From a virus: DNA of 37,978 bases. How positions within the stretch are numbered: the stretch's first letter is position 1; each line of letters starts with the position of its first letter. The notes under the pieces were generated by a model that was not told where the DNA came from, did not search any database, and saw only the letters and a list, made by a program, of their open reading frames with translations. The position numbers and the translations under genes were made by a program. Below are positions 17,097 through 36,856 of the stretch, in pieces. The DNA lies in the UHGV virus genome UHGV-0283905. One strand, given 5' to 3'.

Positions 17097-17097
17097 T

Positions 17098-17109
17098 GTG
17101 ACATGTCAC
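17098..17109. promoter_or_regulatory. 12-bp perfect palindrome GTGACATGTCAC (copy 1 of 3)
   Basis: Overlaps the stop codon of the 98-aa membrane protein gene; adjacent to terminator hairpin. Confidence 0.5.
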
Positions 17110-17402
17110 GCTCTTTTTCTGAATGATAGCCATTCGAAAAATGATGACATTCCACCGCAGACAATAGCAAAGATGATCCCACCAAAGAAGAGAAGGCCAG
17201 CCTGCCACCACTCCCACCGCCATACATCCACAGCGCCAACCATACCAACAATAGCTCCAACAAATGGAATATAGCTCACGATGAAAGCAATGGGGGCTGC
17301 AATTATCCAGTGCAATCCCCACCATGATTCAAGCCCAGCCATAATTGCTGCCAACTGAAAAAGACCAACGACGATATAAACAATGAATCCTATAGCTTGC
17401 AT
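17106..17402 (-). CDS. small multi-pass membrane protein
   Basis: 98 aa, 3-4 hydrophobic segments, Trp-rich loops; last gene of this minus-strand block. Confidence 0.5.
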   Translation of the reverse strand: MQAIGFIVYIVVGLFQLAAIMAGLESWWGLHWIIAAPIAFIVSYIPFVGAIVGMVGAVDVWRWEWWQAGLLFFGGIIFAIVCGGMSSFFEWLSFRKRA

Positions 17403-17441
17403 GTAGTCACCTATTTACCCAGTAAAAATCAGAGGCCTCCC

Positions 17442-17588
17442 CTCAATAAGGCTTGCAACAAGAACTATTCCCTGCACAACAAAGATGAACCAGCAAATAG
17501 CTTGAGTCTGAGGGTTAAGAAAATATTTGTAGCGGTCAATAAATAACAACCCACCAAAAATTATCACACTCAAAATAATTAAAAACAC
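17442..17588 (-). CDS. possible small membrane protein (48 aa, GTG start); not in the ORF track
   Basis: AAGGAAG 5 nt upstream of GTG 17588; hydrophobic translation VFLIILSVIIFGGLLFIDRYKYFLNPQTQAICWFIFVVQGIVLCCKPY; hand-translated, may be non-coding. Confidence 0.25.
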
Positions 17589-17597
17589 AACACTTCC

Positions 17598-20072
17598 TTA
17601 TTGCGGAGTGACATCCTGAGGTCGCCACCAGTATGTCTGGTTAAACTCTTTCTTCGAACGTTGCTCCATTTTACGCAAATAGCCTGGTGAAAAATACTCC
17701 TGCATCTGGTTAAAAATCATGTGATCGAGAGCCGCCTTCAAGTACCAGAGATTCGCACCTGGCATCAAACCTTTCCCCAGCTTCACCAGATCACCACCAG
17801 TCTGCTCACTCTTCCCTTCCACAGCATTTAACGGTATGCCCTGAGCAATCTTCACTACGTCATCAACCAGACCAGCTACCGGGCCAAGCATCGACGCCAG
17901 CGCGCCGCTTCCGTACCTAGTGTGATCTGACAATAAAAAGTCACCGTAAAGGCCAAGACCACCACCTTTCAGTAGAGCACCAAGCCAAAATTTAGCAGCA
18001 TCTTCTCCTGTCATCTCGCGAGGATTACGACCAGACGCAAGGTCGTTAAGTTGCTGCGACAAAGCGCCAAGAATGGTCGTACTGGCAATAAACGTCGCAA
18101 TATATGCCGCACGCCCACCAGCAGACGGCATACCCATAGCGCGTGACCAGTGACGCATAACCACCGAGATAGGGAACGATTTAAACAGGAAAACACTTCT
18201 CGTTAATTCACCTTTCCATGTTCCACGCTGAATACCAGAACCGGTTATCAGTTGCTCACGTGCTCCTGGTGTAATAACAGCCATATCAACTTCTTCAGTT
18301 ACGGCACCGAGCAGTTTACGCATTGCCTCAAATTTCACGCGTTCAGGCTCACCAAGATGTTTAACTGCTGAATCAGGGATACGCATAATGCTTTCCGGTG
18401 TCAGCATCGTATTATTACCGTTCCCCCAGTCCTCCTGTTGCGCCAGCTTCCATACGCTCCAGTCTGTGTCAGTAATCCCTTTGCTTTTCAGGATACGAAA
18501 ATCAGAGTCATCGAGGCTACGAAGGTCTGGTGTCCGTGACACTACTTCTCCCAGGCTTCCCATCATGGTTACGCCATAGGCGCGCTTGTGCGCATCTGAC
18601 CATGCTGTAAGCCCACTGGCACGCATTACCGCCGTTGCCGCCCAACGAGACACTGACGGCCCCATATTATCCATCGCCCAGCGGTTAACGCTGCCAAGTA
18701 GAGATTCCATCGCCAGACCAGCGCGGCGCGCCCGCGCAAGTTCTGTACGGTTCGTTGGGTCCATAGCTTCAAGCTGGTTGCGGAATAACTGGTTCATTGG
18801 AAGGTTGGTCACCTTCGCAGACAGATACATGGTTCCAAGATCAGAGAACGATGATAGCAACGCAGATCCGAGTCTGCTGGCAACCAGCCAGTTGCGGATA
18901 TTGTCAGACCATCGCGCGATGTGCGGATTCGCTACAGGCTGTGTCTTTCCGGAAATAAAGTTGTACAGATTCTCTGTGTTGTTCGCCAGCCGCTCGACTT
19001 TACCGGTTTTACTCGGGTTAGCTGTTGCCGTTTCTGCCTTCACCTGATCAAGAAGAGAGCGGAAAACATGATCGGGGTTTGGGCCATATGTTTCCACCAG
19101 TGCAATATCTTTACTGATACCTTCCAGGTGACCGACCATGATTTCCCATAGAGAGCGATCGCCATAAAGTTGCTGATATTGCAGATAGGAATCTGCATCT
19201 TTGAAATGTATCTGTCGTGATGCATTACCACGGTTAGCACGTGCGCCGGAAATTCGCATTCCGGTATCAGTAAGCTTATTCAGCCCACCAGTAGCGATCG
19301 TGTTATAAGCCTCTCCAAGAAATGCAGACAACTCGGCATCGTTCATCAGTTGTCCATCGGCTCGGATATAATATTTGCGATCCAGCTTACCTATAACATC
19401 GCTAACCCACTTATCCTTTGATACCGCCCCAACCTTTTCCATAGAATGATGTTGAGGGAACCCCCAGTTTTCGAGATAGCCAATGTCCCCACCAGCATCA
19501 TTAAACCGGCGGCGCAGTAGATCTGTCACTTCTCTCCACGCCTTAGCACCTTTTCTTGCTTTAGCATTGCCAGTATTTTGCCCTCGCATTTCATATACCA
19601 GGTCACGTACGCCCGCTTCATCTTCAAACAGACCAAAAAAGCGAGGATCAACTGCTTCGAATGCCTCCTGCAATTGACTCAATGCATAATCACGAGTGGC
19701 TTTTGTTCTGGACTCAACAGAGAGGAAATTCGATTTACCGTCTGCATTAAAAGCAATAGTACGGTTAAGAGCGCCAAGTTTCCCATCAGCCCCTTGATAG
19801 CTATTGATAAATTTATCCAATCTCTGACGTGCGGCTATAGTGAGGGCCACACGACGTTTCTTTAATGCCGCTTCTCGCTGTAATTCTTCAGATGCCAATT
19901 GTGCTGCACGATATAGCCGCTCTGATTCGGAAAGTTGTCTCCACGACATCGGGTCATCACGAGCAATGGAGCGCATATTTCGATAAATGCGGTCTTCAAT
20001 GCTCTGTATTTCTCGCGCCGTTAACGTGCGCTGCGCCGCCTGCTGGACCGCTTGTATACATTCCTGTCTCAT
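17598..20072 (-). CDS. large internal virion / ejection protein
   Basis: 824 aa, position after the other internal virion genes in a T7-like order; hydrophobic Gly-rich segment near the C-terminus. Confidence 0.55.
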   Translation of the reverse strand: MRQECIQAVQQAAQRTLTAREIQSIEDRIYRNMRSIARDDPMSWRQLSESERLYRAAQLASEELQREAALKKRRVALTIAARQRLDKFINSYQGADGKLGALNRTIAFNADGKSNFLSVESRTKATRDYALSQLQEAFEAVDPRFFGLFEDEAGVRDLVYEMRGQNTGNAKARKGAKAWREVTDLLRRRFNDAGGDIGYLENWGFPQHHSMEKVGAVSKDKWVSDVIGKLDRKYYIRADGQLMNDAELSAFLGEAYNTIATGGLNKLTDTGMRISGARANRGNASRQIHFKDADSYLQYQQLYGDRSLWEIMVGHLEGISKDIALVETYGPNPDHVFRSLLDQVKAETATANPSKTGKVERLANNTENLYNFISGKTQPVANPHIARWSDNIRNWLVASRLGSALLSSFSDLGTMYLSAKVTNLPMNQLFRNQLEAMDPTNRTELARARRAGLAMESLLGSVNRWAMDNMGPSVSRWAATAVMRASGLTAWSDAHKRAYGVTMMGSLGEVVSRTPDLRSLDDSDFRILKSKGITDTDWSVWKLAQQEDWGNGNNTMLTPESIMRIPDSAVKHLGEPERVKFEAMRKLLGAVTEEVDMAVITPGAREQLITGSGIQRGTWKGELTRSVFLFKSFPISVVMRHWSRAMGMPSAGGRAAYIATFIASTTILGALSQQLNDLASGRNPREMTGEDAAKFWLGALLKGGGLGLYGDFLLSDHTRYGSGALASMLGPVAGLVDDVVKIAQGIPLNAVEGKSEQTGGDLVKLGKGLMPGANLWYLKAALDHMIFNQMQEYFSPGYLRKMEQRSKKEFNQTYWWRPQDVTPQ

Positions 20073-20077
20073 TTAAT

Positions 20078-21880
20078 TTAACCTCTCAAGAAACACGCCA
20101 CAGCGACATCAAACAGGCTGGAATCCTGTATTGCCTGCTCACTTTCCCTGTTCGCTTCATCCAGTACTTCACGCGCACTGCGCGATTGTGGATTACCATC
20201 ATCATCCAGCACGGTGATTATCATGTCCGGAGATTCAAGCAGCGAGTCTTCAGCTATACGCAGATCAATATCTCCTGCCGGATCTGCCATCATTTTTTGT
20301 TCTGTCTGTTGCAATATCTTACCGGGCTCAAAAGGAGCTACTTCGTCTGGCGTCCTGACCTCTGCTGTTTTATAGAATGAAACAGCCTGAGCATTAAGTT
20401 CACTTTCTGCCTGCTGTCGTCGTGCCAGTTCTGCTCGAGCTTCAAAAAACTGACCTCCAGGCTCGTGCGGCGCCAACGCGTTACGAGAAAATTCCAGGCG
20501 TTCTTGTGCCTGCCGGATTCGTTGGTCAATATCGCGAAGTCTGGCCTGTTTATCTGATCGAGCACGAGATAAAGCCTTACCGCTACCGGTTGGCTCTTCT
20601 GCAAGAATTTGTGCGCGCTGTTCAGTGAGATTTTCAATAATTCGTTGGCTATTAGCGATTTCAGACTGGTAAACCTGTCTATCGCCACGCGACAAAAGCT
20701 GCGCGGCCTGTTCTTCAAGCAACCGATTTTCTATAGCGCGCGCCGTTACTCCATCATCTACAGATGACAGAGCCTCATTAACTGCCTGAGACAGCAGACT
20801 CTTGCGCCCAGGAATTTCACTGAAAGATGCAGACTCAACAATGCTGGCAACGTCTACAGGTCTCCCCTGGCTAACATCAGACATGGCTTTTCGCAGAGCC
20901 TGAATGTGCGAATTACGCGAAAGCACGTTGATCGGAACGCCGGGAGCAATATCAATTTCAGCATGATGAGCGGCATTCGCCGCCAGTGCAGCATCAATAT
21001 CAACTGGTGAAAAATTTGGTGTGCTTGTAGACTCGCCGCGAGAGTTAATAAATCTGCCGACACCACCAAACGCCACCCCAAGAACAGCATCAATAGCAAT
21101 TGCCTGTCGATCCAACACATCATACTGGTTAGCCATTTCGCTATAGCCACCATCACGAAGCGTTTTTGCAGTAAGCCCACGCTGTGCCATACCGAACGCA
21201 ATATTTGTACCTGCGGCATAGGCAATATCTGGCGTTGCACGTACTGCTGTTGCTGCGGCGCGTCGCACTGAACTTTCACCCGTCCGCGCAAGCTGAGCCG
21301 CCACACCTTCCGCCAGCGCACCACCAGCACGTAACCCGAGGCTCATAGGGATCAGTGTTCCGGCACCAGCAGTAATACCCTGCACTAATCCCGCTTCCTG
21401 CGCCGTCCTGAAATCAACACCCTGTGCTGTCAACCGTTCAAACTCAGAAAAACCCTGTAGAGAAGTTACCGCCGCAGCACCTCCGACCGGACCACCGAGC
21501 GTTGTACCGACAACAGCCTGCCCGCCCATATCGAACAACCCATAAAGGACCTGCCCGGCGGTTCCGGTTGTCGCGGCATCAGGCGTCAGCCGCTTAACCT
21601 GCTGCTCTGCTAGTTTTCTCTGCTCAGCAATGTATGAAACTGAAGTGTCATTGAGCGAGGTGTTTTCGTTAACAAGCTGAGCAATCGGTGATACGATTTT
21701 ATCCATCCCTGCCCATAGCAACTGATCTGGCTTTGCCACCAGCCCGGAGTACAAACCAGACAATGCCGCTCCTACAGCATTGTCGAAAAAACCAACATCG
21801 CTGTTAAAGCCAACTGGATTTGATGCTGCTTCGTCAAGCTGCTGATTCTGGTTTACTGGATTAAGGCCAAAGTAACTCAT
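20078..21880 (-). CDS. internal virion / ejection protein
   Basis: 600 aa, Ala/Gly-rich, coiled-coil C-terminal half; 4-nt overlap with upstream gene. Confidence 0.5.
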   Translation of the reverse strand: MSYFGLNPVNQNQQLDEAASNPVGFNSDVGFFDNAVGAALSGLYSGLVAKPDQLLWAGMDKIVSPIAQLVNENTSLNDTSVSYIAEQRKLAEQQVKRLTPDAATTGTAGQVLYGLFDMGGQAVVGTTLGGPVGGAAAVTSLQGFSEFERLTAQGVDFRTAQEAGLVQGITAGAGTLIPMSLGLRAGGALAEGVAAQLARTGESSVRRAAATAVRATPDIAYAAGTNIAFGMAQRGLTAKTLRDGGYSEMANQYDVLDRQAIAIDAVLGVAFGGVGRFINSRGESTSTPNFSPVDIDAALAANAAHHAEIDIAPGVPINVLSRNSHIQALRKAMSDVSQGRPVDVASIVESASFSEIPGRKSLLSQAVNEALSSVDDGVTARAIENRLLEEQAAQLLSRGDRQVYQSEIANSQRIIENLTEQRAQILAEEPTGSGKALSRARSDKQARLRDIDQRIRQAQERLEFSRNALAPHEPGGQFFEARAELARRQQAESELNAQAVSFYKTAEVRTPDEVAPFEPGKILQQTEQKMMADPAGDIDLRIAEDSLLESPDMIITVLDDDGNPQSRSAREVLDEANRESEQAIQDSSLFDVAVACFLRG

Positions 21881-24390
21881 TGCGGAATATCTCCGGAGAA
21901 TCTCTGACGCTTCTGTGTCAGATCAAGAACAACGGGAGAACCATCATCTTTTAGCAGATAACCAGTACCAAGTTTCACCAGGTACTGACTATCGCCGTAA
22001 CTTTGCAAACCATACTGACCAGGCGGTGTTTTTATCCCTGTGCCAACAACTTGTTCATTCCAAGCCTGATTAACCTGCTTATCGAATTGCTCTGCAGACA
22101 TTCCCCACGGCAAAAGAACATTCCCCATTCCGTTATAGTCATGCACGCCACCTGTAGCTACGTTAACAGCCTGTTTCCAGATATCATTGTCAATTTCGCC
22201 TGATACCACGCCTTTTTTCGCCATCACACCAGCGTAATAGTCCTTTGCGATCTCGTATGCCATTGATGCCCCCTGAGCATCACCAGCAAATGCATCCTTC
22301 ACCATGTCAGAAAACTCAAGGCGAAGATCAGCATCTTTAGGCATCGGAATACCTTTCGCGTCATCAGTACCTTTACGAGCCGCCGCGCCAGCAAGAATTG
22401 TCTGCGCAGCGGTTTCTGGAGACACGGAAACATCCGGATTAAACCAGTTTTTTTCTGCCAAAATACCACCTGGCTTATCCATCAGTATCCCGGCAACGGC
22501 AGCAGATGGAGCGTTGGCACTGATCTGCTGTAGTGCTGACATATACACCTGCCCACCACCAGTGCTCTGCCTGATGGTATCGAGATATGCTGCCTGTTGG
22601 GAAACGGGCGCATCACGAAAGAAAACACCGATCTGATTGGCCTCGTCTTTGGAAAAGAACGTCAGTGGAGTGCCATATGACTTAGCAAGGTCACTGACCT
22701 GAGCAGCACGCAAGGCAACGCTCTGTCCAAAGTTATCCTTATTGCTCATGTCGATAGGCTTTGCCTGTCCGGCGGCAAGAGAGAACTGTACAGGATCAGC
22801 CTGTCGCTGCTTTATCACCTGACTTGCAGCCGACACAACGTTGTCATAAAGAGCGGCTCGTGCCGCATAACCCTCCCCTGTCTCACCAGTATCCGGGCGT
22901 AATTGCTCAACATATGCTGTAATGCTGCTTGTCGGCATGTTGCGGAAAGAGCCTATATACTGTCCGGCGATTTGCGTATTTCTGAACTCGGTATATCGCA
23001 GGTTTCCTTCTCTTACTCCATAAGCTGCAATAAAATCAGCCTCACCAGGTGGGTTAGGAAATTCAACGCCACGCATATACGCAGCTGTCGCATCGCGAAC
23101 CTGGCTGTCAATCATCGTTTTATATTCAGCCTGCTGCTGCCGACGCAGTTGATCCGCCTGTCGCATAAAACTTGCCTGCGCCTCAGGAGATGCCGCATCG
23201 AATGCTGCATTACCGGTATAGCGTTTGGTGTTGGTTGGAATTGTTGATAAACCAAGTGCTGCACTGACACCAGCAGTTAACTGCTGATCACTGTATGGCT
23301 GGCTACCGTTCTCATGATGGATAATGGCTGCACAAAGCGCCTTCAGGGTATCAGGATTAGATGCATCGAGAGGCTCATCAGCAGAAACGCCAAGTTGTTC
23401 GCACACTGCTTTGATATACGACATAGTGTCATTTTTATCAGCAGGCGGTGCCCAGCGATTAATTATCTCGCTGACGGTATCAATACCCTGCCTCTGATAC
23501 GACATCAGGTTCCGCCCTAATGCACGAATCCCGTGTTCAGGTGTTTCGAATTTAGCAAATCGACCATCATCACCGGTCTGGCCTACCCACGGATTAGTTT
23601 TGCTGTATTCGAGATTTCCTGGGTTATTGTTGCGTATGCCACGGGCACGCTCGGAAGAGTCACTATCTGCTACAGCACGGCGAGCTCCAGCAGCAGTATC
23701 ACTTAACTCGCCATTACTTTGGATGAATGCGGTCGCATTGTTTGCCGACCACTGGGACAATGCAGCATCAGCAACCTTCTCTTTAAACTCGATTTTCTTG
23801 GCCTGGATTTGCTCGTTGCTCCAGCCATGTGCAACACCGTACTCCTCAATTTGCTGGAAAGTTTGCTTGTTAGCCAATACGTATGCGGCGTTGTCGCCAT
23901 ACAATGCTGCGGCATTTTTACCATTGTTCAGCAGTGTCGCCTGAAACTGGCCTTCTTCGTAGGCATTAATTTGCCCTATCTCGTGTCGCCCGGCCTGCGT
24001 AGTGAACTGAATGCGCTGCTGCTGCGCCTGCTGCATGAAAGCATTACGAGCCTGTTCATCCGGCAGCGACATAGCCAGTTGTTCGACCTGAGCATCAAAC
24101 TGCTGCGTATACTCATGGCCTTTTCCAATAGCATTTTTCCCTTTCAGGTTAAGCAATCCTGTTTCAGGATTATTCAGCAGATCGCTGCTTATCTGACTGA
24201 GGTTAAGAGATGCCTCCTGAGCCAGAGCGATATTGGCACGCTGTTTTGCCTGCCCCAAAACATCAATTGCCTCTGTCCCTGCCCGAACAAAAGCATCACC
24301 AATACCTTGCTGAGAAAACGTCTGCAAGCCTGCTGACTGAACTCCACGACTCTCAACCTGACGTCCGGATACTGTTGGTACGACTGGCAT
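21877..24390 (-). CDS. internal virion protein (T7 gp15-position) with conserved RNNNPGNL-containing domain
   Basis: Start set at ATG 24390 (TAATG overlap with upstream stop, GGAGG 6 nt upstream); table ORF begins 24465; function of the internal domain unknown. Confidence 0.55.
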   Translation of the reverse strand: MPVVPTVSGRQVESRGVQSAGLQTFSQQGIGDAFVRAGTEAIDVLGQAKQRANIALAQEASLNLSQISSDLLNNPETGLLNLKGKNAIGKGHEYTQQFDAQVEQLAMSLPDEQARNAFMQQAQQQRIQFTTQAGRHEIGQINAYEEGQFQATLLNNGKNAAALYGDNAAYVLANKQTFQQIEEYGVAHGWSNEQIQAKKIEFKEKVADAALSQWSANNATAFIQSNGELSDTAAGARRAVADSDSSERARGIRNNNPGNLEYSKTNPWVGQTGDDGRFAKFETPEHGIRALGRNLMSYQRQGIDTVSEIINRWAPPADKNDTMSYIKAVCEQLGVSADEPLDASNPDTLKALCAAIIHHENGSQPYSDQQLTAGVSAALGLSTIPTNTKRYTGNAAFDAASPEAQASFMRQADQLRRQQQAEYKTMIDSQVRDATAAYMRGVEFPNPPGEADFIAAYGVREGNLRYTEFRNTQIAGQYIGSFRNMPTSSITAYVEQLRPDTGETGEGYAARAALYDNVVSAASQVIKQRQADPVQFSLAAGQAKPIDMSNKDNFGQSVALRAAQVSDLAKSYGTPLTFFSKDEANQIGVFFRDAPVSQQAAYLDTIRQSTGGGQVYMSALQQISANAPSAAVAGILMDKPGGILAEKNWFNPDVSVSPETAAQTILAGAAARKGTDDAKGIPMPKDADLRLEFSDMVKDAFAGDAQGASMAYEIAKDYYAGVMAKKGVVSGEIDNDIWKQAVNVATGGVHDYNGMGNVLLPWGMSAEQFDKQVNQAWNEQVVGTGIKTPPGQYGLQSYGDSQYLVKLGTGYLLKDDGSPVVLDLTQKRQRFSGDIPQ

Positions 24391-28804: not shown

Positions 28805-28848
28805 TCCTGCAATAAAGGGGCCGAAGCCCCTTGTCGGATTCGCGAGGC

Positions 28849-29193: not shown

Positions 29194-29194
29194 C

Positions 29195-29632
29195 TTAACC
29201 AGTTACTTTTGAGCGGATCGGGTACGGCGTATTGGCATCAACATCCAGACTGATACCCGCAGTGAATTTGCCGGCCGTTAGTGGGCCAGTTGCGACGGAG
29301 TAGTTAACACGCAGATATCGCTGAACACCGGCAGGCACCTTTGCAGAAACAACTCGTTTACCTGCTGTCAGGGTAGCCTTTGCCAGTGCGCCACTATCAT
29401 AAATAGTGGACCATGAGCTGTTATTCTCACTCGTCTGCAACTGGATGTTTACAGTTGCCTCACCACTTGCCGTGGCGGCTTCGTTAACCAGCACCCAAAA
29501 CTCAAGCGGATAACCCACGCCGATATCGCGACGGTTTCCATCAATTGGACCGAGATCGATTACGTCAGTAGAAGCCGCGGTATTCGTAACCGCCTGAGCT
29601 TCGGAGAACATCAACAGTTTGTCGGTGATCAT
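29195..29632 (-). CDS. hypothetical capsid-associated protein (decoration or staple candidate)
   Basis: 145 aa, Thr/Ser/Ala-rich, immediately after the major capsid gene. Confidence 0.35.
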   Translation of the reverse strand: MITDKLLMFSEAQAVTNTAASTDVIDLGPIDGNRRDIGVGYPLEFWVLVNEAATASGEATVNIQLQTSENNSSWSTIYDSGALAKATLTAGKRVVSAKVPAGVQRYLRVNYSVATGPLTAGKFTAGISLDVDANTPYPIRSKVTG

Positions 29633-29683
29633 CTTCTTTCTCCATTAGTGGGTCTGTTACGACCCACAGGTTAATAACAGGCG

Positions 29684-30676: not shown

Positions 30677-30684
30677 TTCCTCTC

Positions 30685-31386
30685 TTATTTGCCATAGAGC
30701 ACTTCGGCCGCACTACGCTGGCCTTCATTACCACCGGTGACCATGCCATCTTCAGACATCGCCTTTCCGATTTTCACGAACGTTTTGACCAGATCAGGGT
30801 GATTACCCAGCCCGGTGGTGTTCAGATATTCTTTGAGTTCAGGTGTCCCGAACTGGTCAAGCGCACGCTGTGCGGCGCTAAGGTTAGAAATCAACTTGTC
30901 GCCACCGATTTCTTTGTCAGCTTTTACATCCGCAGCCCACTGCTCGGTTGTTTTCTGCCAGGCTTCTGCCTGGCGCTGCTGAACACCTGCCAGAATCTTC
31001 GGATAAGCATCAACCAGCTTTTGCGCTTGCTCGTTGGTCAGGTTAAGTTCTCGCGCCACCGGCTCGAATTCCTTCAACGCTTCTGTATCCAGCTCTACGC
31101 CTTCGGCAGCCTGAAACTCGTACTTCTCAGGCGCACCCTCTGGTTTATCGCCGTCCTTTTTTTCATCCTGCTTATCGTTTTCAGGCTTTTTGTCATCAGC
31201 AGGTTTATCGCCATCAGCAACAGGTTGTGGCTTATCACCTTCCTGTTGTGATGGATCACCAACTGGAGCAGGGTTATCACCTGCAGGCGCTGACGGTTCT
31301 GACGCAGCCGGAGCTGCTCCACCATCGACTGGTTGCTCATTGCAAAGACGGCGATACAGCAAACGCTCAAATAAACTCATGATCAC
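30685..31386 (-). CDS. scaffolding protein
   Basis: 233 aa, acidic, Pro/Ala-rich N-terminal third and Lys/Asp/Glu-rich region; between portal and capsid genes. Confidence 0.55.
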   Translation of the reverse strand: MIMSLFERLLYRRLCNEQPVDGGAAPAASEPSAPAGDNPAPVGDPSQQEGDKPQPVADGDKPADDKKPENDKQDEKKDGDKPEGAPEKYEFQAAEGVELDTEALKEFEPVARELNLTNEQAQKLVDAYPKILAGVQQRQAEAWQKTTEQWAADVKADKEIGGDKLISNLSAAQRALDQFGTPELKEYLNTTGLGNHPDLVKTFVKIGKAMSEDGMVTGGNEGQRSAAEVLYGK

Positions 31387-31679
31387 TCCTGTTCACTGGC
31401 CTCTTTGGCCATCTTCAAATACTGTTCAGGGCAATGCGCCATAACGCGCTGAAACAGTTCCAGCGCCAGATTGCGTTGCCCCTCATTAAATGCCATTGCC
31501 ATAGCGTCCATCGGTGAGATAGCGGAAAACACACGGCCTTTCTCCAGCACCGACCAGACAACGCGACGCCCCTGTTCACTGCTCATGACAAAGCGAATGT
31601 CATCAATTTCACGCTGCGCCATGTCACGTTGCTTACGGGCGTTTTCTTCTTTCAGTTGATCGTCTTCGTAATCTGTCAT
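31383..31679 (-). CDS. hypothetical protein between portal and scaffold
   Basis: 98 aa, overlapping neighbours by 4 nt at both ends. Confidence 0.4.
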   Translation of the reverse strand: MTDYEDDQLKEENARKQRDMAQREIDDIRFVMSSEQGRRVVWSVLEKGRVFSAISPMDAMAMAFNEGQRNLALELFQRVMAHCPEQYLKMAKEASEQE

Positions 31680-33355
31680 TGTGATTGCCCACCCTGACCA
31701 CTAACTGCATTCGCCATAGCTGACAAAACACTCGGATCCGAAGTTTTAGCTTCGCTTAGCGTCTTGGCCCCCTGTGCCGCCGCCATCCCCATCGCCATCA
31801 TTTGTTGCTGCTGTTGTTGCTGTGCCCGTTGCTGGCGAGCCTGCTCAACCTGTTCCTGCGGAACAATGACGGTTGGAGACACTCCGGACATATCAGCGAA
31901 TGCATCGATCGCCTGATCAACGTTGAGTTTGTCGAGAGCTTCTGGTTTCGCTTGCGCAAGTTGACCAATGAAGTTGACCGTAGACGCCAGACTGGACAGG
32001 CCGATAGACTTCTGCGCCTGAGCCATGACGGAAATGTATTCGACCTTCAGGGGCATACCTTCCATCGCGTCAGGCGGTGGCGGCAGCATGTTTTTACGCA
32101 CCATCATCGAGAAAGCGCGGTCAATGAGAGGATTAAGACATTCGTCGTTCAGACGCTCCAGAACCGGCCCCAACATCAGAAGTTTTTCTTCTTTCATTTC
32201 GATCACTGCTTCAACAGGCATCGAGCGGGTATTGATGTTCTGCAACATCATGAACAGATCGACAAAGTAGGCGCTGTTAATGATTTGACGAGTGTCCTGA
32301 ATGTCTGCTACCAGATCTGCTGTACTGGGGTTAACCAGATAAGCAGGCCTGAAGCCATCCTGACCAGTAATCTGATCGATATACGTGATGTCACCAGGAA
32401 GAAGGGAGGCGCGCTGATTCTTGAGGGAAGTCGGAGCAACCATCGGCGGATTGGTGGCTTTATCAATCAACTGCGACTTGCGCTCCTGGAGAAGTTGCAA
32501 TGCCTTAACAGGTCCAAGCGCCAGCATACCCGGGCATGATGATCCATAAACATCTTCGCCATTAACTTCCCAGCGCGGAGCCATAATTGGAAACTCATCA
32601 AATCCGGACTCACGCAACAACTTGTCGTTATCGCCACCAACCTCGTAATAAACCGATTTGAATGGCTTGTTCTTGCTATCCAGCTTCGATGTATCGCGGT
32701 CAATGTTCGGGTAAACCGAATGCATCACTTCAATCCACTTCTCGTAGGTGCCGCTTTCCCACATGCTTTTTACGGATTCGCTGACGTTATTTAGTCCGAA
32801 CTCCTGAACAAGCTGACGAACAGTCATAGAGAACTTGCGAAAACAGGTGTCCACACTGCCACGAGGTGAGTTAGCCAGGTAGTAACTTCCTATCGGGAAT
32901 GGCATTGTACGAATGATGTCCTCGTCATCCTCCAGCACCGCCATTGCGCCAGTGCTGTATGTGCCGAGGCTTCCGTATAACTGCGGCAGCGACTGATAGA
33001 GATTCGACTTATTGAACATATCGTTCATGCGGTTCTGCACCGCCTCAAGCCACAACTTAACAGGGCCATAATCCATCATTTCAGGATCTGGCGTAGCCAG
33101 GCGAAACCACGGACGCGCGGGGCTTGTGATGCCTGACATCATGCCGCTGGCGAGAGTGCGCGCCGCCATAGTCCCGGTCGAATCAATAATGCGTGTATTG
33201 CGTCGATCGTTACGGTTGACCTCAGAAGTCAGAAAGCGGGAACCACGCGGGTTGATGTAATCACTCAACTCGCGCCAGTGCGGCTCGAACGACTGACGCT
33301 CGCTTTCAAGTTGTGCGAACTGTTTGTTCAATCGCTCTTTAGTTGTTTCCGCCAT
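31676..33355 (-). CDS. portal protein (T7 gp8-like head-to-tail connector)
   Basis: 559 aa; C-terminal Gln-rich tail QQRAQQQQQQQMMAMGMAAAQG resembles the T7 gp8 C-terminus from memory. Confidence 0.8.
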   Translation of the reverse strand: MAETTKERLNKQFAQLESERQSFEPHWRELSDYINPRGSRFLTSEVNRNDRRNTRIIDSTGTMAARTLASGMMSGITSPARPWFRLATPDPEMMDYGPVKLWLEAVQNRMNDMFNKSNLYQSLPQLYGSLGTYSTGAMAVLEDDEDIIRTMPFPIGSYYLANSPRGSVDTCFRKFSMTVRQLVQEFGLNNVSESVKSMWESGTYEKWIEVMHSVYPNIDRDTSKLDSKNKPFKSVYYEVGGDNDKLLRESGFDEFPIMAPRWEVNGEDVYGSSCPGMLALGPVKALQLLQERKSQLIDKATNPPMVAPTSLKNQRASLLPGDITYIDQITGQDGFRPAYLVNPSTADLVADIQDTRQIINSAYFVDLFMMLQNINTRSMPVEAVIEMKEEKLLMLGPVLERLNDECLNPLIDRAFSMMVRKNMLPPPPDAMEGMPLKVEYISVMAQAQKSIGLSSLASTVNFIGQLAQAKPEALDKLNVDQAIDAFADMSGVSPTVIVPQEQVEQARQQRAQQQQQQQMMAMGMAAAQGAKTLSEAKTSDPSVLSAMANAVSGQGGQSQ

Positions 33356-33369
33356 TTCAATGACTCCGG

Positions 33370-33576
33370 TTACTGACCAAGCAGCGTTTTACCGCTGGTA
33401 TTAGCGGTTGATGTGTCGCCCTGAGAACCGGTAAGCAGCGTAGAACTACGACCAGCAGCAGCGCGACGGCGACGAGTTTCTTCGTAGCGGGCATCAACAA
33501 CGGCGGCATCCTGCTCCTGTGGTGCTGCCTGAACTTCTGGTGTTGCAGGCACTGACGGTGAGCTACCCATGCACAT
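33370..33576 (-). CDS. hypothetical small protein upstream of portal
   Basis: 68 aa, GGAG 8 nt upstream of ATG 33576; overlapping 79-aa frame 33357..33596 judged less likely. Confidence 0.35.
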   Translation of the reverse strand: MCMGSSPSVPATPEVQAAPQEQDAAVVDARYEETRRRRAAAGRSSTLLTGSQGDTSTANTSGKTLLGQ

Positions 33577-33666
33577 ATCAATGACTCCGTACGCAATTAA
33601 ATTATTACCAATTTAACCACATATGATTTATTTATCGTAGACAGTTGACATTTAATGCACGAATTA

Positions 33667-33681
33667 TTACCTTTCAGGTAA
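33667..33681. promoter_or_regulatory. dyad site TTACCtttcaGGTAA; possible -35 TTGACA at 33644..33649
   Basis: Exact motif at the start of the non-coding region leading to the tRNA. Confidence 0.45.
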
Positions 33682-34003
33682 GTAAATGGTTCATTCCGGT
33701 TATTAACCTGACTGGCTTGTCGTTAAATTGAACAGGTGGAGTGAGCTTTTATTTTGAGCAGTACGGCGTATGGCACATGCGCCGATAGCGGTCTGGATAC
33801 GTTTAAGGGGCACCCTCCCTTGCTCGGGCAAACGAACCAGGTAGCCGGAATGTGCAAGTCGAGCGGTTTTATTCCGCGCACGGGGATTCACCATCCCGGC
33901 GATTCGGTGTGACGCCTCGGAAGAGACGAGGGTACAACGATGAGAGCATTTATGGAGCCGCGACAAAGTGTGGCGCCTTAACAGGCTAAGTGCTCTCAGC
34001 GTT

Positions 34004-34080
34004 GTGGCATTAGCTCAGTTGGACAGAGCAACCGCCTTCTAAGCGGTTGGTCGCAGGTTCGAATCCTGCATGCCACGCCA
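34004..34080 (+). tRNA. tRNA-Arg (anticodon UCU), CCA encoded
   Basis: Hand-folded cloverleaf: acceptor GTGGCAT/ATGCCAC, D-arm GCTC-AGTTGGACA-GAGC, anticodon arm ACCGC-CTTCTAA-GCGGT, T-arm GCAGG-TTCGAAT-CCTGC, discriminator G, CCA. Confidence 0.85.
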
Positions 34081-34123
34081 GAATCACGCCTAAGGACCGT
34101 GATGCCAGAAGTTCCAGGTGCTT

Positions 34124-34165
34124 GGCGGTGATGGTTTCCCTTGAAGGACTATCACCGCCCTTTTT
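34124..34165 (+). terminator. terminator-like hairpin after the tRNA
   Basis: GGCGGTGAT ... ATCACCGCC stem followed by CTTTTT. Confidence 0.55.
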
Positions 34166-34243
34166 ACAGCAGGACGCCATTGCGATGACTTCATGCTGTA
34201 AACCAGTACAGCCACGGAAGGCATAACTCATTGCTTCCAGTTC

Positions 34244-34267
34244 GCCCGGTTCGCCGGGCATTTTTTT
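34244..34267 (+). terminator. intrinsic-terminator-like hairpin in the leader of the DUF2829 gene (attenuator candidate)
   Basis: GCCCGG-ttcg-CCGGGC plus TTTTTTT, ending 12 nt before ATG 34279. Confidence 0.6.
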
Positions 34268-34278
34268 AAGGTGAGATT

Positions 34279-34575
34279 ATGAGCGAAACATCAACAGTAT
34301 CTTTCTCCACTGCTTTGTCATCACTCAAAGATGGTAAGCGCATTGCACGTGCCGGATGGAATGGCAAAGGCATGTATCTGCAACTGGTTAAGCCACCGCA
34401 ATCGGCCACTCCGAACGAGTGGCGATTTGACGTTACATGCGGTGACGAGTATACATTTGTACCTGGCGTTAAACTTCTACCGTGGATTGGGATGAAAACT
34501 GCTGACGGTTGCTTTGTACCGTGGCTGGCATCTCAAACCGATCTGCTATCTGATGACTGGATTGTAATTCAATAA
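34279..34575 (+). CDS. DUF2829-family protein (Tad2-like, candidate anti-Thoeris sponge)
   Basis: 98 aa; N-terminal FSTALSSLKDGKRIARAGWNGKGMYLQL and C-terminal VPWLASQTDLLSDDWIVI fit my recollection of the DUF2829 pattern; opposite orientation to flanking structural genes, own terminator. Confidence 0.55.
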   Translation: MSETSTVSFSTALSSLKDGKRIARAGWNGKGMYLQLVKPPQSATPNEWRFDVTCGDEYTFVPGVKLLPWIGMKTADGCFVPWLASQTDLLSDDWIVIQ

Positions 34576-34579
34576 CACC

Positions 34580-34591
34580 GTGACATGTCAC
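34580..34591. promoter_or_regulatory. 12-bp perfect palindrome GTGACATGTCAC (copy 2 of 3)
   Basis: 4 nt upstream of terminator hairpin 34596..34622. Confidence 0.5.
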
Positions 34592-34595
34592 AAAC

Positions 34596-34622
34596 AGCCA
34601 GCCTATGAGCTGGCTTTGTTTT
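34596..34622 (+). terminator. intrinsic terminator after the DUF2829 gene
   Basis: AGCCAGC-ctatga-GCTGGCT plus TTGTTTT. Confidence 0.7.
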
Positions 34623-34665
34623 ATCCTCACCAGAGGATATCAACGACATTATCCCCACCAGCGGA

Positions 34666-36141
34666 TTAAGCATAGGGATCGTAATCTGTAATGGCCTTGC
34701 CTTGCTGGTTCTGCTGACCTGGAATTCGCAGACGCTTCGACACAGGGAAAGCAAACGTCAGCAATAGCGCATCGCCTTTACCAGGAGAACGCCCAAGCCG
34801 CTCCTTGATATCTTCCTTCGGTTCGATAACGATTTTACCGTCCACTCGAACTTTGTACTCTGCCGCCGACAGGTCGTCCGCTGTTTCCTGGTCATCAAGC
34901 ATGCCGCCCAGCCTCAGCCATGTCTTGCATGAGTTGAACATCTCCCCGCGCTTATTGAGCATCTGCGGGTCAGTAGACGCGCCACCGAACGGAACAAGTT
35001 GCCATGTACGACCCCAGCCATCACCGATTGACTTCAGACCAGTTCCGTAACCGAAGTCGATGAACACTGCGTCAGCCTGGTACTGGTCTTCAAAGTCAGC
35101 GATACGCTTCGCCATAATCAGATCGTCAGTGGTCTTGTTGCCGGTCCACAGCACCTTACTGTGCAGCCCCTGCCGCAGATATATCACCGCGTCATCAACA
35201 CCGGAGTATGCCGGGTCAACGCCGATTATCACCGGAGCATGTGCAACCTGCGCAGCGGTGACCACCCGTTTCATTGCCTCGTCAGTAAGTCCGGTAGGGA
35301 TAAACTGCAATTCAGATGCATCCGGGAATATGCCGCGCACACGGATTTTAACGAAGTCGCTATCTTCCCCGTAGTCATCAACCCATTTCTGCAACTGCTG
35401 TTTGTTAGTGCCTTCCACCGTCCGGCTGTCAATCTGCGCAGTTTTCCAGCGGTGTTTGTATTTGCGGAAACATTCGCGAAAACGCCCGGTATTACGTGTA
35501 GGGTTTCCGAACGCCACCCAGATAATCTCAGTGTCTTCGTCCGTAAGCGCACCCTCAGCAACTTCCCACACCAGATCCGCAATGTTCGACGCTTCATCGA
35601 ATACCACGATGATGCGTTTGCGCTCGTTGTGTAGTCCGGCGAATGCCTCAGTGTTGTGCTCAGACCAGGGGATTGCGTCAGCTCGCCACCGCTTGTCGTG
35701 CCCAGGATCATTGCTGTACATCGCAGTAGCGGTACAGGTAAACCAGTCTTTCGTGATAGCAAGGTTCGACCACTTGATAATTTCCGGCCAGGTCTTCGTT
35801 CGTAGCTGGTTGTCGGTGTTGGCGGTCACCACGACCTTACAATCCTCGCAAGTGGACATGCCCCAGTTGATCAGCATTGAGATGAATGCGGATTTACCAA
35901 TACCGTGACCCGAAGCACGTGCCAGCATAAGCGGCTGATAGCGCGTCTCTGGATTCTGCAGGTGATCACGTATCTCTCGGAACGCATCAGCCTGCCACTG
36001 ACGTGGGCCGGTAGCATGTGCCAGTTCAGTCCCCTCTTCCCCCCACGGGAACGCATAGAGGGCATAGCCAAGCGGATCGTGAGTGAACCCTGCAATATCC
36101 TCGATCAACTGCTCTTCAGGAGATAACGCTGTATCTGTCAC
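34666..36141 (-). CDS. terminase large subunit
   Basis: 491 aa; Walker A-like GHGIGKSAF; ATPase then nuclease layout; start overlaps small-subunit stop (ATGA). Confidence 0.85.
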   Translation of the reverse strand: MTDTALSPEEQLIEDIAGFTHDPLGYALYAFPWGEEGTELAHATGPRQWQADAFREIRDHLQNPETRYQPLMLARASGHGIGKSAFISMLINWGMSTCEDCKVVVTANTDNQLRTKTWPEIIKWSNLAITKDWFTCTATAMYSNDPGHDKRWRADAIPWSEHNTEAFAGLHNERKRIIVVFDEASNIADLVWEVAEGALTDEDTEIIWVAFGNPTRNTGRFRECFRKYKHRWKTAQIDSRTVEGTNKQQLQKWVDDYGEDSDFVKIRVRGIFPDASELQFIPTGLTDEAMKRVVTAAQVAHAPVIIGVDPAYSGVDDAVIYLRQGLHSKVLWTGNKTTDDLIMAKRIADFEDQYQADAVFIDFGYGTGLKSIGDGWGRTWQLVPFGGASTDPQMLNKRGEMFNSCKTWLRLGGMLDDQETADDLSAAEYKVRVDGKIVIEPKEDIKERLGRSPGKGDALLLTFAFPVSKRLRIPGQQNQQGKAITDYDPYA

Positions 36142-36734
36142 TGATTACCATCCTGACGTTCTTTGAGTCGCTTCCTGGCTGCTGCTATGCGATCAGCAAT
36201 TGTCACATTCACATTAACATCCAGACGTTCTTTGAACGCGTTGACATCAACATGCTTACCAATCAGCTCAAGGTTCTTCACCTTGTCAGGCCATTTAATT
36301 TTTTTGAGGATTGTCTCTATCGAATCCTCGTTCATGTTCATGATGGTCGATGACAGATCAAAGCCACTAAGCGTAGTGCGCCAGATTTTCGGCCACTCAC
36401 GGATTGGTTTAAGGCTCCCATCGTCGTTGAGGATGTCGATCACGTCCATCTGGTCGATCTGCACCAGGCGCATGAGAACGTAATCAGCACTGACGCGCAT
36501 TCGTTTGTTGCGCTCCTCCATCAACTCGGCAATCCGTTTTTGAATGCGTTCATCGCGCATCATGACACTGGCTTTAACTGCCGCTGTATTTGGGGAGAAT
36601 CCTGCGTTAATCGCTGCCTGAGTCTGGTTTTCAGGCGTTTTGATGTATGACTGGCAATAAGCCTCCTGCATTGCTGTTAGTGGCTTAAATTGCGTTGATT
36701 TGCGTTTATAGGTTTTAGGTTCAGCAGGCATCAT
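36138..36734 (-). CDS. terminase small subunit
   Basis: Start at ATG 36734 or 36731 (MMPAEPKTYK...), GGTGG upstream; the table's longer ORF (to 36812) would read through a terminator hairpin and is treated as spurious. Confidence 0.6.
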   Translation of the reverse strand: MMPAEPKTYKRKSTQFKPLTAMQEAYCQSYIKTPENQTQAAINAGFSPNTAAVKASVMMRDERIQKRIAELMEERNKRMRVSADYVLMRLVQIDQMDVIDILNDDGSLKPIREWPKIWRTTLSGFDLSSTIMNMNEDSIETILKKIKWPDKVKNLELIGKHVDVNAFKERLDVNVNVTIADRIAAARKRLKERQDGNQ

Positions 36735-36741
36735 AACCACC

Positions 36742-36770
36742 GTGGTAATAGTTACCGTTGTGGTAATAGT
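36742..36770. repeat. direct repeat GTGGTAATAGT x2 just upstream of the terminase small-subunit start
   Basis: Copies at 36742..36752 and 36760..36770; contains an inverted GGTAA-N3-TTACC arrangement. Confidence 0.4.
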
Positions 36771-36775
36771 ACCAT

Positions 36776-36803
36776 ACAAAATAAAGCCGCCATAGTTGGC
36801 GGC
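36776..36803 (-). terminator. intrinsic terminator between the late-leader genes and terminase (tR'-like)
   Basis: GCCGCC-aactat-GGCGGC hairpin then UUUAUUUUGU on the minus-strand transcript. Confidence 0.65.
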
Positions 36804-36844
36804 AGTATTCAAAACCCATCAAATTCATCATGCATAATCTACTC

Positions 36845-36856
36845 GTGACATGTCAC
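36845..36856. promoter_or_regulatory. 12-bp perfect palindrome GTGACATGTCAC (copy 3 of 3)
   Basis: Overlaps the stop of the Cys-rich gene, about 41 nt upstream (in transcription direction) of terminator 36776..36803. Confidence 0.5.

What the first reader, a model, noticed from the sequence alone, without database searches (positions are those of the whole stretch)
17098..36856. Perfect palindrome GTGACATGTCAC occurs three times, each next to an intrinsic terminator
The three copies are at 17098..17109, 34580..34591 and 36845..36856. Each sits at the 3' end of a gene and within 1-45 nt upstream, in the transcription direction, of a hairpin plus U-run terminator (17073..17096 minus, 34596..34622 plus, 36776..36803 minus). 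The 36845 copy lies between a Cys-rich small protein gene and the terminator that precedes the terminase/structural operon. That layout is reminiscent of lambda pR'-qut-tR', so the Cys-rich protein could be a Q-like antiterminator or late activator using the palindrome as its site. It could equally be a roadblock or processing site.
Basis: seen in the sequence. Interest (0 to 1): 0.65.

Follow-up and report, generated by a model that had tools for sequence, protein, structure and literature searches.

The report
Phage protein's conserved 12-bp binding site
The thrice-repeated palindrome is real and is almost certainly the DNA docking site of the small Cys-rich phage protein encoded next to it, an uncharacterised protein-site pair that is shared by many unrelated temperate phages and resembles the host's MatP/matS chromosome-organising system rather than lambda's Q antiterminator.

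Summary
Observation confirmed. GTGACATGTCAC occurs exactly three times (0 expected), each beside an intrinsic terminator at an operon junction of an epsilon15-like (Uetakevirus) phage.

The same 12-mer sits at the same three places in epsilon15, SPN1S, phiV10 and Tyrion.

The motif GTGAC-N2-GTCAC travels with one gene family, the 113-aa Cys-rich protein (epsilon15 gp49 / N15 gp46, PHROG 536):
- It is found in podo-, myo-, sipho- and P2-like phages that carry the gene, often overlapping the gene's TGA stop.
- Among 80 P2-like loci, 7 of 8 with the gene have the motif and 0 of 72 without it do (p = 2.5e-9).
- In a Pseudomonas clade the site shifts to GTTAC-N2-GTAAC, so site and protein co-vary.

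The protein models confidently as a basic helix, a ribbon-helix-helix domain and a zinc knuckle. It is not Q-like, and relatives co-exist with genuine Q proteins.

The half-sites equal those of host matS (13 bp), but the spacing here is strictly 12 bp.

Best reading: this is the cognate operator of a new RHH-Zn protein. Here it marks three operon boundaries, and its effect there (roadblock or insulator versus MatP-like bridging) is unresolved. The Q-like antitermination idea is not supported.

The parts
36845..36856 (.). Palindrome site A, GTGACATGTCAC. Its TGA (36855-36853, minus strand) is the stop codon of the gp49-like gene. It lies about 41 nt upstream of terminator A and about 115 nt upstream of the likely terS start.
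   Evidence: The site is syntenic and exact in epsilon15, SPN1S and Tyrion, and has 1 mismatch in phiV10.
34580..34591 (.). Palindrome site B, between the convergent terL (minus strand) and Tad2-like gene (plus strand). It is 4 nt from the terminator hairpin.
   Evidence: It is syntenic in four relatives although the hairpin sequence differs. It is lost or mutated in 17 of 76 loci with 99-100% identical terL that have enough DNA downstream to judge (80 loci in all).
17098..17109 (.). Palindrome site C, at the end of the structural (late) operon. Its TGA is the stop codon of the 98-aa ORF, and it directly abuts terminator C.
   Evidence: It is syntenic in four relatives.
36853..37191 (-). Gene for the 112-aa protein (ATG at 37191; the ORF list starts it at TTG 37194). 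The protein has an N-terminal basic helix, a ribbon-helix-helix domain, a long helix and a 4-Cys zinc knuckle. It belongs to the epsilon15 gp49 / N15 gp46 family (PHROG 536) and is the inferred binder of the palindrome.
   Evidence: The gene-site linkage rests.
36776..36803 (-). Intrinsic terminator A (GCCGCCAACTATGGCGGC followed by TTTATTTTG), at the end of the early-right operon.
   Evidence: It is conserved in relatives.
34596..34625 (+). Terminator B hairpin plus T-run. It is a good terminator for the Tad2-like gene direction. In the terL direction the T-run is replaced by GTTT plus the palindrome.
17070..17097 (-). Intrinsic terminator C (AGGCCGCTTTCGCGGCCT followed by TGTTTTT), at the end of the structural operon.
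36733..36767 (.). Two tandem repressor-type operators (ATTACC-N5-GGTAAT, 1 mismatch each) between terminator A and the terS start codon. They are context for site A.
   Evidence: The epsilon15 record annotates the same motif as repressor binding sites.
34666..36731 (-). Terminase operon bracketed by sites A and B: terS (likely ATG at 36731, ending at 36138) and terL (36141-34666).
17106..17402 (-). 98-aa ORF (PHROG 3075, unknown function), the last gene of the late operon. Its stop codon lies inside site C.
34279..34575 (+). Tad2-like (anti-Thoeris) accessory gene. Its 3' end faces site B.
   Evidence: PF11195, E = 3e-24.

Best explanation
GTGACATGTCAC is the DNA recognition site (operator) of the phage's own small ribbon-helix-helix/zinc-knuckle protein, the 113-aa ORF at 36853-37194 (epsilon15 gp49 / N15 gp46 family).

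A dimer is inferred to read the two GTGAC half-sites with its beta-ribbon and its N-terminal basic helix.

In this phage the three sites occupy three operon junctions:
- the end of the early-right operon, just before terS;
- between terL and a convergent Tad2-like cargo gene;
- between the last structural gene and the convergent ant/cargo operon.
Each site abuts an intrinsic terminator.

The protein is the last product of the early-right operon. It is inferred to occupy these junctions during lytic growth and to act as a boundary element. Most likely it is a roadblock or insulator that reinforces or tunes termination between adjacent transcription units. It may pair sites through oligomerisation: sites A and B are 2.26 kb apart, and arrays with 33-34 bp spacing occur in relatives.

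Shown: the sites, their deep conservation, the gene-site linkage, the co-variation, and a high-confidence model with the RHH fold.
Inferred: binding itself, the stoichiometry, and any effect on transcription.

My split of probability is about 0.9 that this is the protein's cognate site, about 0.4 that its main role is transcriptional boundary control, and the rest on the rivals.
For: - There are 3 exact copies where 0 are expected.
- The 12-mer is exact at the same three syntenic junctions in epsilon15, SPN1S, phiV10 and Tyrion, although flanks and hairpin sequences differ.
- The motif is present in every unrelated phage type that carries a homolog: ZF40 (3 copies, one 3 nt after the gene), phiKO2 (GTGACTGGTCAC on the gene's stop codon plus 2 more), a Yersinia P2-like phage, and Vibrio K303.
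- 46 IMG/VR loci with the gene hold 83 motifs in 759 kb. In 26 loci the motif's TGA is the gene's stop codon, and in 14 more a motif starts within 10 nt after the last matched codon.
- Spacing is strict in the enteric and Vibrio loci: N2 = 100 and N0, N1, N3-N6 = 0 in 1.04 Mb. One 13-bp site turned up later in Vibrio phage K303.
- In P2-like loci, 7 of 8 with the gene have the motif against 0 of 72 without it, p = 2.5e-9.
- In the Pseudomonas clade the site becomes GTTAC-N2-GTAAC: 32 copies in 270 kb there and 0 in 1.03 Mb of enteric loci.
- Terminator-like hairpins lie within 50 nt of 38 of 100 sites against 7% of random positions.
- Sites are enriched outside long ORFs: 53% lie in a long open frame against 89% of random positions.
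Against: - There are no binding or expression data for any family member.
- Terminator adjacency is lineage-specific. The ZF40 and phiKO2 sites lie inside ORFs or between co-transcribed genes. The Pseudomonas clade has 5-10 sites per 20 kb, several of them inside the terS-like ORF, terL and the portal gene. That pattern fits an architectural role better than a boundary role.
- Geometry does not obviously favour a roadblock that helps the adjacent hairpin. RNAP would stall before the hairpin is transcribed. This is an inference from known RNAP footprints.
- Site B is point-mutated or replaced in 17 of 76 loci with 99-100% identical terL that have enough downstream DNA to judge, and site A carries a mismatch in phiV10-type phages. 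Single sites are therefore dispensable, at least in prophages.
Confidence: 0.55

Rival explanations
1. This is a MatP/matS-like architectural system of the phage. The RHH-Zn protein binds dispersed matS-like sites to bridge or loop phage DNA, or to exclude or unload SMC complexes (MukBEF/Mks-type). Transcription is not the target, and the sites sit at operon ends only because that is where non-coding DNA is.
For: - The half-sites GTGAC/GTCAC are identical to matS (GTGAC[AG]N[TC]GTCAC; PMC3603311, PMC8669397).
- Half-sites are invariant across proteins that are only 32-40% identical, as is typical for architectural sites.
- The Pseudomonas clade has many sites per genome, some inside ORFs.
- Site pairs 33-34 bp apart, and sites 2-3 kb apart, recur.
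- One true 13-bp matS-type site occurs in Vibrio phage K303.
Against: - Sequence-profile similarity to MatP is insignificant (hhalign probability 2%).
- The protein has no four-helix bundle and no coiled coil. It has a zinc knuckle instead.
- Spacing is 12 bp, never 13 bp, in 1.04 Mb of enteric and Vibrio loci. The single 13-bp site in K303 is the only exception seen.
- The family also lives in Pseudomonas phages. Their hosts lack MatP (my own knowledge) and the site differs there.
- The tight, conserved abutment to hairpins in Uetakeviruses is left unexplained.
Confidence: 0.2
2. This is a lambda Q-like module. The Cys-rich protein binds the palindrome at site A, loads onto RNA polymerase and lets it read through terminator A into the terminase and late genes.
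For: - The gene sits immediately before the late genes.
- The order at site A is site, then 30-41 nt, then terminator, then terS.
- The palindrome contains a -35-like GTGACA with a weak -10 at 17-18 nt in two lineages (9 of 12 matches).
- There is a marginal sequence resemblance between the C-terminal helix plus zinc finger and the RNAP-binding TraR/YbiI proteins (E = 0.02-0.04; hhalign probability 61%).
Against: - There is no Q-family domain, and the model has an RHH fold.
- Sites B and C have no late genes or promoters downstream.
- Repressor operators sit in front of terS, gp3 and the tailspike gene, which suggests separate repressor-controlled promoters.
- Homologs co-exist with bona fide Q-like proteins in ZF40 and phiKO2 and occur in P2-like phages.
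Confidence: 0.12
3. The palindrome acts at the RNA level, as a 3'-UTR element (GUGACAUGUCAC) just 5' of the terminator hairpin. It would serve as a processing, stability or dimerisation signal for the three mRNAs that end there.
For: All three copies are transcribed immediately before a terminator in one direction. A self-complementary 12-mer could pair between RNAs.
Against: - On its own it forms only a 4-5 bp mini-hairpin.
- No Rfam family lies at the sites.
- In other lineages the sites lie inside ORFs, between co-transcribed genes or far from terminators.
- Perfect dyad symmetry, strict spacing and co-variation with an RHH protein are hallmarks of a double-stranded DNA site.
Confidence: 0.04
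4. The sites are variant matS sites bound by host MatP, or they are chance or hitch-hiking parts of the terminators with no function of their own.
For: The half-sites are identical to those of matS (PMC3603311, PMC8669397).
Against: - Presence depends on the phage gene: 0 of 72 P2-like loci without it have the motif.
- Apart from one 13-bp site in Vibrio phage K303, the 13-bp spacing is not seen.
- The site changes in the Pseudomonas clade.
- Prophages otherwise avoid matS (PMC3603311).
- Hairpin sequences diverge while the 12-mer stays exact.
- The chance expectation is about 0.002 per genome.
Confidence: 0.04

Closest known systems
MatP / matS (Ter macrodomain organiser of E. coli and relatives)
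   Same: - The DNA reader is a ribbon-helix-helix domain preceded by a basic helix.
- The site is a short palindrome with identical GTGAC...GTCAC half-sites.
- There are a few dispersed sites per replicon.
- Most hosts of the phage family (Enterobacterales, Vibrio, Aeromonas) are MatP-bearing taxa, according to my own knowledge.
   Different: - The site is 12 bp (N2) rather than 13 bp (RNY).
- There is no four-helix bundle and no C-terminal coiled coil. A 4-Cys knuckle takes their place.
- Sequence similarity is not significant.
- The family extends to Pseudomonas phages with a shifted site.
- The protein is encoded by the phage, and one site usually overlaps its own stop codon.
Phage and plasmid RHH repressors with palindromic or tandem operators (P22 Arc/Mnt, CopG, omega, antitoxins such as MazE/TacA)
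   Different: - The sites are not at the protein's own promoter but at gene 3' ends and operon junctions.
- The specificity is almost invariant across very divergent phages, rather than diversifying as immunity determinants do.
- The protein has an extra zinc knuckle.
- There is no toxin partner.
Lambda Q with qut and tR' (late antitermination)
   Same: The gene lies just upstream of the late genes. At site A the DNA site is followed by a terminator and then by late genes. The protein is Cys-rich.
   Different: The fold and family differ. Two of the three sites have no late genes downstream. Homologs co-occur with true Q proteins. No promoter-proximal pause element has been identified.
Global regulators with operators dispersed over a replicon (P1 C1, RK2 KorB). 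This comparison rests on my own knowledge.
   Same: One protein has several identical palindromic sites scattered over the genome.
   Different: Those sites sit at promoters. Here they sit at operon ends or inside ORFs. The protein folds are also unrelated.
TraR/DksA C4 zinc-finger RNAP-binding proteins
   Same: There is a marginal profile match of the helix plus CxxCG..P..G..C segment to TraR and YbiI.
   Different: Single family members give no PF01258 hit. There is no structural match. The last Cys of the signature is displaced. The helix that would correspond to TraR's channel-inserting helix is helix B of the RHH core.

Membership tests
Lambda Q-type antitermination module | The protein belongs to a Q antiterminator family. 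| tested here: not met
Lambda Q-type antitermination module | The binding element is embedded in a late promoter. | tested here: inconclusive
   Only weak promoter-like matches that use GTGACA as the -35 are found at site A (9 of 12). None reads towards late genes at sites B and C, and one relative has none. A promoter-proximal pause signal was not looked for.
Lambda Q-type antitermination module | A terminator lies between the site and the late genes. | tested here: inconclusive
   This is met at site A. It is not met at sites B and C, where the DNA beyond the terminator is the 3' end of a convergent accessory gene.
Lambda Q-type antitermination module | The protein is the phage's dedicated late regulator. 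| tested here: not met
   Homologs co-exist with annotated Q-like proteins in ZF40 (gp25) and phiKO2 (gp38), and occur in a P2-like phage downstream of gpA.
Ribbon-helix-helix DNA-binding proteins (Arc/MetJ/CopG superfamily) | The fold is beta-strand, helix, helix. | tested here: met
Ribbon-helix-helix DNA-binding proteins (Arc/MetJ/CopG superfamily) | Sequence-profile membership (Pfam RHH families). | tested here: inconclusive
   Only 1-2 of 58 members touch RHH_5, RHH_1 or RepB-RCR_reg at E = 0.01-0.07. There is a weak hit to the CopG-type 'LexA regulated protein' (E = 0.004-0.05).
Ribbon-helix-helix DNA-binding proteins (Arc/MetJ/CopG superfamily) | A dimer binds a symmetric DNA site. | not testable with these tools
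   The support is indirect: the palindrome is perfect, the spacing is strict, gene and site are linked, and site and protein co-vary.
MatP / matS | The site is the 13-bp GTGAC-RNY-GTCAC. | tested here: not met
   All 100 sites in 1.04 Mb of enteric and Vibrio loci have N2 spacing and none has N3. One N3 site is seen in Vibrio phage K303.
MatP / matS | MatP architecture: four-helix bundle, RHH and C-terminal coiled coil, with detectable homology. | tested here: not met
MatP / matS | Restricted to MatP-bearing gamma-proteobacteria. | tested here: not met
   Family members occur in Pseudomonas and Shewanella as well as in Vibrio and the enterics.
DksA/TraR C4 zinc-finger proteins | PF01258-type zinc finger and TraR-like fold. 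| tested here: inconclusive

The most novel reading that the evidence does not exclude
Temperate phages of gamma-proteobacteria carry their own miniature MatP/matS-like system. An early-expressed RHH-Zn protein binds a 12-bp 'phage matS'. In enteric and Vibrio phages this site has the same half-sites as the host's 13-bp matS, and it is shifted by one base per half-site in Pseudomonas phages. The system would fold or bridge the phage genome, or keep host SMC machines (MukBEF, or Mks/Wadjet-type defence) off it. The one-base difference in spacing would keep the phage system insulated from host MatP, which prophages otherwise avoid attracting.
Probability: 0.15. Interest if true: 0.85.

Novelty: new variant of a known kind. 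Interest (0 to 1): 0.62.

Why it matters
- It gives a testable function, sequence-specific DNA binding with a defined 12-bp site, to a widespread 'hypothetical' phage protein family (PHROG 536, no Pfam family). The family is found in podo-, myo-, sipho- and P2-like temperate phages of Enterobacterales, Vibrio, Shewanella and Pseudomonas.
- The sites mark operon junctions and the edges of accessory-gene cargo. Here these are a Tad2-like anti-Thoeris gene and the antirepressor region. In P2-like phages the gene and a site array bracket a variable insert. The sites are therefore useful landmarks for annotation and for studying how morons are insulated.
- The identity of the half-sites with matS, one base pair out of register, raises a concrete question about cross-talk with, or deliberate insulation from, the host chromosome-organising machinery. 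That question is directly testable by EMSA and ChIP.

Tried and rejected
- **Literature.** The 12-mer, 'matS-like', 'MatP-like/homolog', and epsilon15/phiV10 gp49 gave nothing relevant. The ZX5 paper studies only the repressor, antirepressor and integrase.
- **Repressor operators.** The palindrome is not the prophage repressor's operator, which is ATTACC-N5-GGTAAT. That motif has 10 sites in the window, elsewhere.
- **Host factor sites.** CRP, FNR and LexA sites were considered from memory and rejected on spacing and flanks. True LexA-like boxes lie elsewhere.
- **Promoter reading.** GTGACA as a -35 element is weak and inconsistent.
- **RNA structure.** The palindrome forms only a mini-hairpin, and Rfam has nothing at the sites.
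- **Foldseek against PDB.** Uninformative.
- **MatP homology by hhalign.** Not significant.
- **Terminator orientation.** The bias of palindrome before terminator (31 to 3) was discounted. It is largely automatic when the palindrome abuts the hairpin or overlaps a stop codon.

Full report
**Observation**

GTGACATGTCAC occurs exactly three times in the 37,978-bp window, at 17098, 34580 and 36845. No copy appeared in 100 dinucleotide-preserving shuffles. Relaxing to two mismatches adds only one chance-level hit.

- Site C abuts the minus-strand hairpin 17097-17080, which is followed by TGTTTTT.
- Site B lies 4 nt before the plus-strand hairpin 34596-34615, which is followed by TTGTTTT.
- Site A lies about 41 nt before the minus-strand hairpin 36803-36786, which is followed by TTTATTTT.

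The TGA inside the palindrome is the stop codon of the 113-aa Cys-rich ORF at site A and of a 98-aa ORF at site C. Site B starts 4 nt after the stop of ORF 34279-34575.

**What the window is**

The window is an epsilon15-like (Uetakevirus) temperate podophage, in reverse orientation to the phiV10 record.

The minus strand carries the early-right operon, whose last gene is the Cys-rich ORF. After it come terS-terL, then the long structural operon.

The plus strand carries two accessory regions that converge on sites B and C:
- a Tad2-like gene (PF11195, E = 3e-24) preceded by a tRNA-Arg gene;
- an isrK/C4-RNA plus antirepressor-type operon.

The prophage repressor's operators, ATTACC-N5-GGTAAT, are a different motif. 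They occur ten times, including in front of terS, gp3 and the tailspike gene.

**Conservation**

The exact 12-mer is present at the same three junctions in epsilon15, SPN1S, phiV10 and Tyrion. In phiV10 and Tyrion the records are cut through site A, and the phiV10 copy has one mismatch.

The flanks and even the terminator stems differ between these phages while the 12-mer and its position stay the same. In epsilon15 the TGA again serves as the stop codon at sites A and C.

Among 80 IMG/VR loci with 99-100% identical terL:
- 56 keep both A and B;
- 17 have lost B, six by a point mutation and eleven by replacement of the downstream module;
- a few carry the phiV10-type mismatch in A.

Single sites can therefore decay in prophages, although the set is kept across genera.

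**The motif travels with one gene**

tblastn with the Cys-rich protein finds homologs in quite different phages. Each of those I fetched carries the motif:
- Pectobacterium myophage ZF40 has three exact copies, one of them 3 nt after its homolog gp22.
- The N15-like siphophage phiKO2 has GTGACTGGTCAC overlapping the stop codon of its homolog gp45, plus two more copies.
- A Yersinia P2-like phage has two copies 33 bp apart.
- Vibrio phage K303, whose homolog is 32% identical, has three copies, one of them 31 nt upstream of terS.

In 46 IMG/VR loci fetched through the ZF40 homolog there are 83 GTGAC-N2-GTCAC motifs in 759 kb. In 26 loci the motif's TGA is the homolog's stop codon, and in 14 more a motif starts within 10 nt after the last matched codon.

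Spacing is strict. In 1.04 Mb of these loci N2 occurs 100 times and N0, N1 and N3-N6 never.

A natural experiment settles the linkage. Of 80 P2-like loci fetched through gpA, 8 encode a strong family member and 7 of those have the motif. The 72 without a strong family member (1.08 Mb in the 70 with no hit at all, plus two loci with only marginal hits) have none. Fisher p = 2.5e-9.

A divergent Pseudomonas clade of the protein has a shifted site, GTTAC-N2-GTAAC. It occurs 32 times in 270 kb there and not at all in 1.03 Mb of enteric loci. Hybrid GTGAC-NN-GTAAC copies sit at the gene's stop codon and near its start.

Gene-site co-occurrence in five genome architectures, plus co-variation, is what a cognate protein-operator pair predicts. 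It excludes chance, a pure terminator appendage and a host-factor site.

**The protein**

There is no Pfam or NCBIfam family, only PHROG 536, which is labelled 'transcriptional regulator'. The family is small: 152 clusters at 50% identity.

The alignment shows, in order:
- a basic N-terminal segment (RKxxQRxR);
- a beta-strand;
- two helices;
- CxxCG..P..C..G..C.

**The matS resemblance**

matS is GTGAC[AG]N[TC]GTCAC, with consensus GTGACATTGTCAC (PMC3603311, PMC8669397). The phage site is that consensus minus one central base.

MatP reads matS with helix alpha4 and strand beta1 (PMC8669397). The phage protein has the same order of elements.

Bobay et al. found no true matS in 500 prophages (PMC3603311), and my loci contain only one, in K303.

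Membership fails, however:
- the spacing is 12 bp, not 13 bp;
- hhalign against MatP gives probability 2%;
- the four-helix bundle and the coiled coil are absent;
- the family reaches Pseudomonas and Shewanella.

So the protein may work like MatP at the level of DNA reading, but it is not a MatP.

**Terminators**

Across all loci, 38 of 100 sites have a terminator-like hairpin within 50 nt, against 7% of random positions. Sites also avoid long ORFs: 53% lie in a long open frame against 89% of random positions.

Much of this enrichment follows from placement at operon ends. The orientation bias is largely automatic.

In ZF40, phiKO2 and the Pseudomonas phages, several sites lie inside ORFs or between co-transcribed genes.

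The tight palindrome-hairpin abutment is thus a conserved feature of the Uetakevirus lineage, not of the family.

**Mechanism**

I commit to the following. The palindromes are operators of the RHH-Zn protein (about 0.9). In this phage the protein, made at the end of the early-right operon, occupies three operon junctions. Most likely it acts on transcription there, as a roadblock or insulator that tunes termination between early, terminase, structural and accessory units (about 0.4).

The main rival is a MatP-like architectural role, bridging DNA or excluding SMC complexes (about 0.2). That rival better explains the invariant half-sites, the phased 33-34 bp arrays and the many intragenic sites of the Pseudomonas clade.

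Site A does have the order site, terminator, late genes, with a weak promoter-like match. But the fold, the other two sites and the co-occurrence with real Q proteins speak against it.

RNA-level, MatP-site and chance readings are unlikely.

**Limits**

Nothing here shows binding, stoichiometry or any effect on RNA. All functional statements are inference from comparative sequence analysis and a predicted monomer structure. Many of the loci compared are related by descent, so counts of sites are not counts of independent events. The independent lines are the five phage architectures, the P2-like with/without test and the clade-specific site change.

Noticed in passing
window 34279-34575 (+), with 34196-34211: A Tad2-like (Thoeris anti-defence 2) gene (PF11195, E = 3e-24) converges on terL. 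A LexA-box-like CTGTAAACCAGTACAG lies 68 nt upstream of it, so the gene may be SOS-controlled.
   Followed up: partly
window 15146-15335 (+) and 14768-14783: Rfam finds isrK (Hfq-binding RNA) and a C4 antisense RNA in tandem upstream of the plus-strand antirepressor-type operon that ends at site C. A near-perfect LexA box, CTGTATAAATATACAG, lies between this operon and the divergent tailspike gene.
   Followed up: partly
window 34004-34080 (+): A tRNA-Arg (anticodon TCT) gene lies in the accessory region between site B and the structural operon.
   Followed up: no
window 1604, 1666, 3973, 4685, 4747, 14713, 16160, 33666, 36733, 36751: There are ten copies of the repressor-type operator ATTACC-N5-GGTAAT (0.05 expected), including in front of terS, gp3 and the tailspike gene. 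This suggests that the repressor controls the late operons directly. The GGTAAT half-site doubles as a -10-like element.
   Followed up: partly
window 36731 versus 36812 (minus strand): The ORF list, and the phiV10 annotation, start terS at a TTG that overlaps terminator A. Comparison with epsilon15 and Tyrion puts the real start at ATG 36731, directly after the operators (MPAEPKTYK...).
   Followed up: partly
L004 (SPN1S) 26722: A one-mismatch copy, GTGACATGTCAT, overlaps the TGA stop of the last lysis gene (Rz-like). This may be a decayed or weak fourth site at another operon end.
   Followed up: no
L054 (Vibrio phage K303) 6769-6781: A true 13-bp matS-type sequence, GTGACACCGTCAC, overlaps a gene's TGA stop in a phage that also has three 12-bp sites. 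It is the only N3 site seen in the loci I scanned for spacing variants (about 1.3 Mb; the terL and P2-like sets were not scanned for N3).
   Followed up: no
L006 11675-11719 and L153-L159, L173: In P2-like phages the site is part of a conserved block of about 90 nt. The block holds a terminator-like hairpin, a degenerate site GTGACATGGCAC, the perfect site 33 bp further on, and sometimes a third site about 34 bp beyond. The distance from the homolog gene to this block varies from 0.5 to 4.5 kb, so gene and block bracket a variable cargo insert (an 'Smc-like' gene in L006).
   Followed up: partly
L055-L072 (Pseudomonas phage contigs): There are five to ten GTKAC-N2-GTMAC sites per 20 kb. Several lie inside ORFs (the terS-like ORF, terL, the end of the portal gene) in the reading frame V-T-R-N. 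N1-spaced variants also occur (10 copies). One site lies in the first codons of the homolog and one lies on its stop codon.
   Followed up: partly
L005 (ZF40) 5125 and 7622: The two extra ZF40 sites flank the immunity region (cI-cro-cII), 2.5 kb apart. Each is a few hundred bp to about 1 kb downstream of where the early promoters should lie, and inside annotated ORFs. The arrangement is conserved in ZF40-like IMG/VR contigs.
   Followed up: partly
window ends (1-545 and 37184-37978): Early-right-operon genes lie on the minus strand at both ends of the window. This is expected if the window is a circularly permuted, near-complete phage genome rather than an integrated prophage with host flanks. 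I did not verify it.
   Followed up: no
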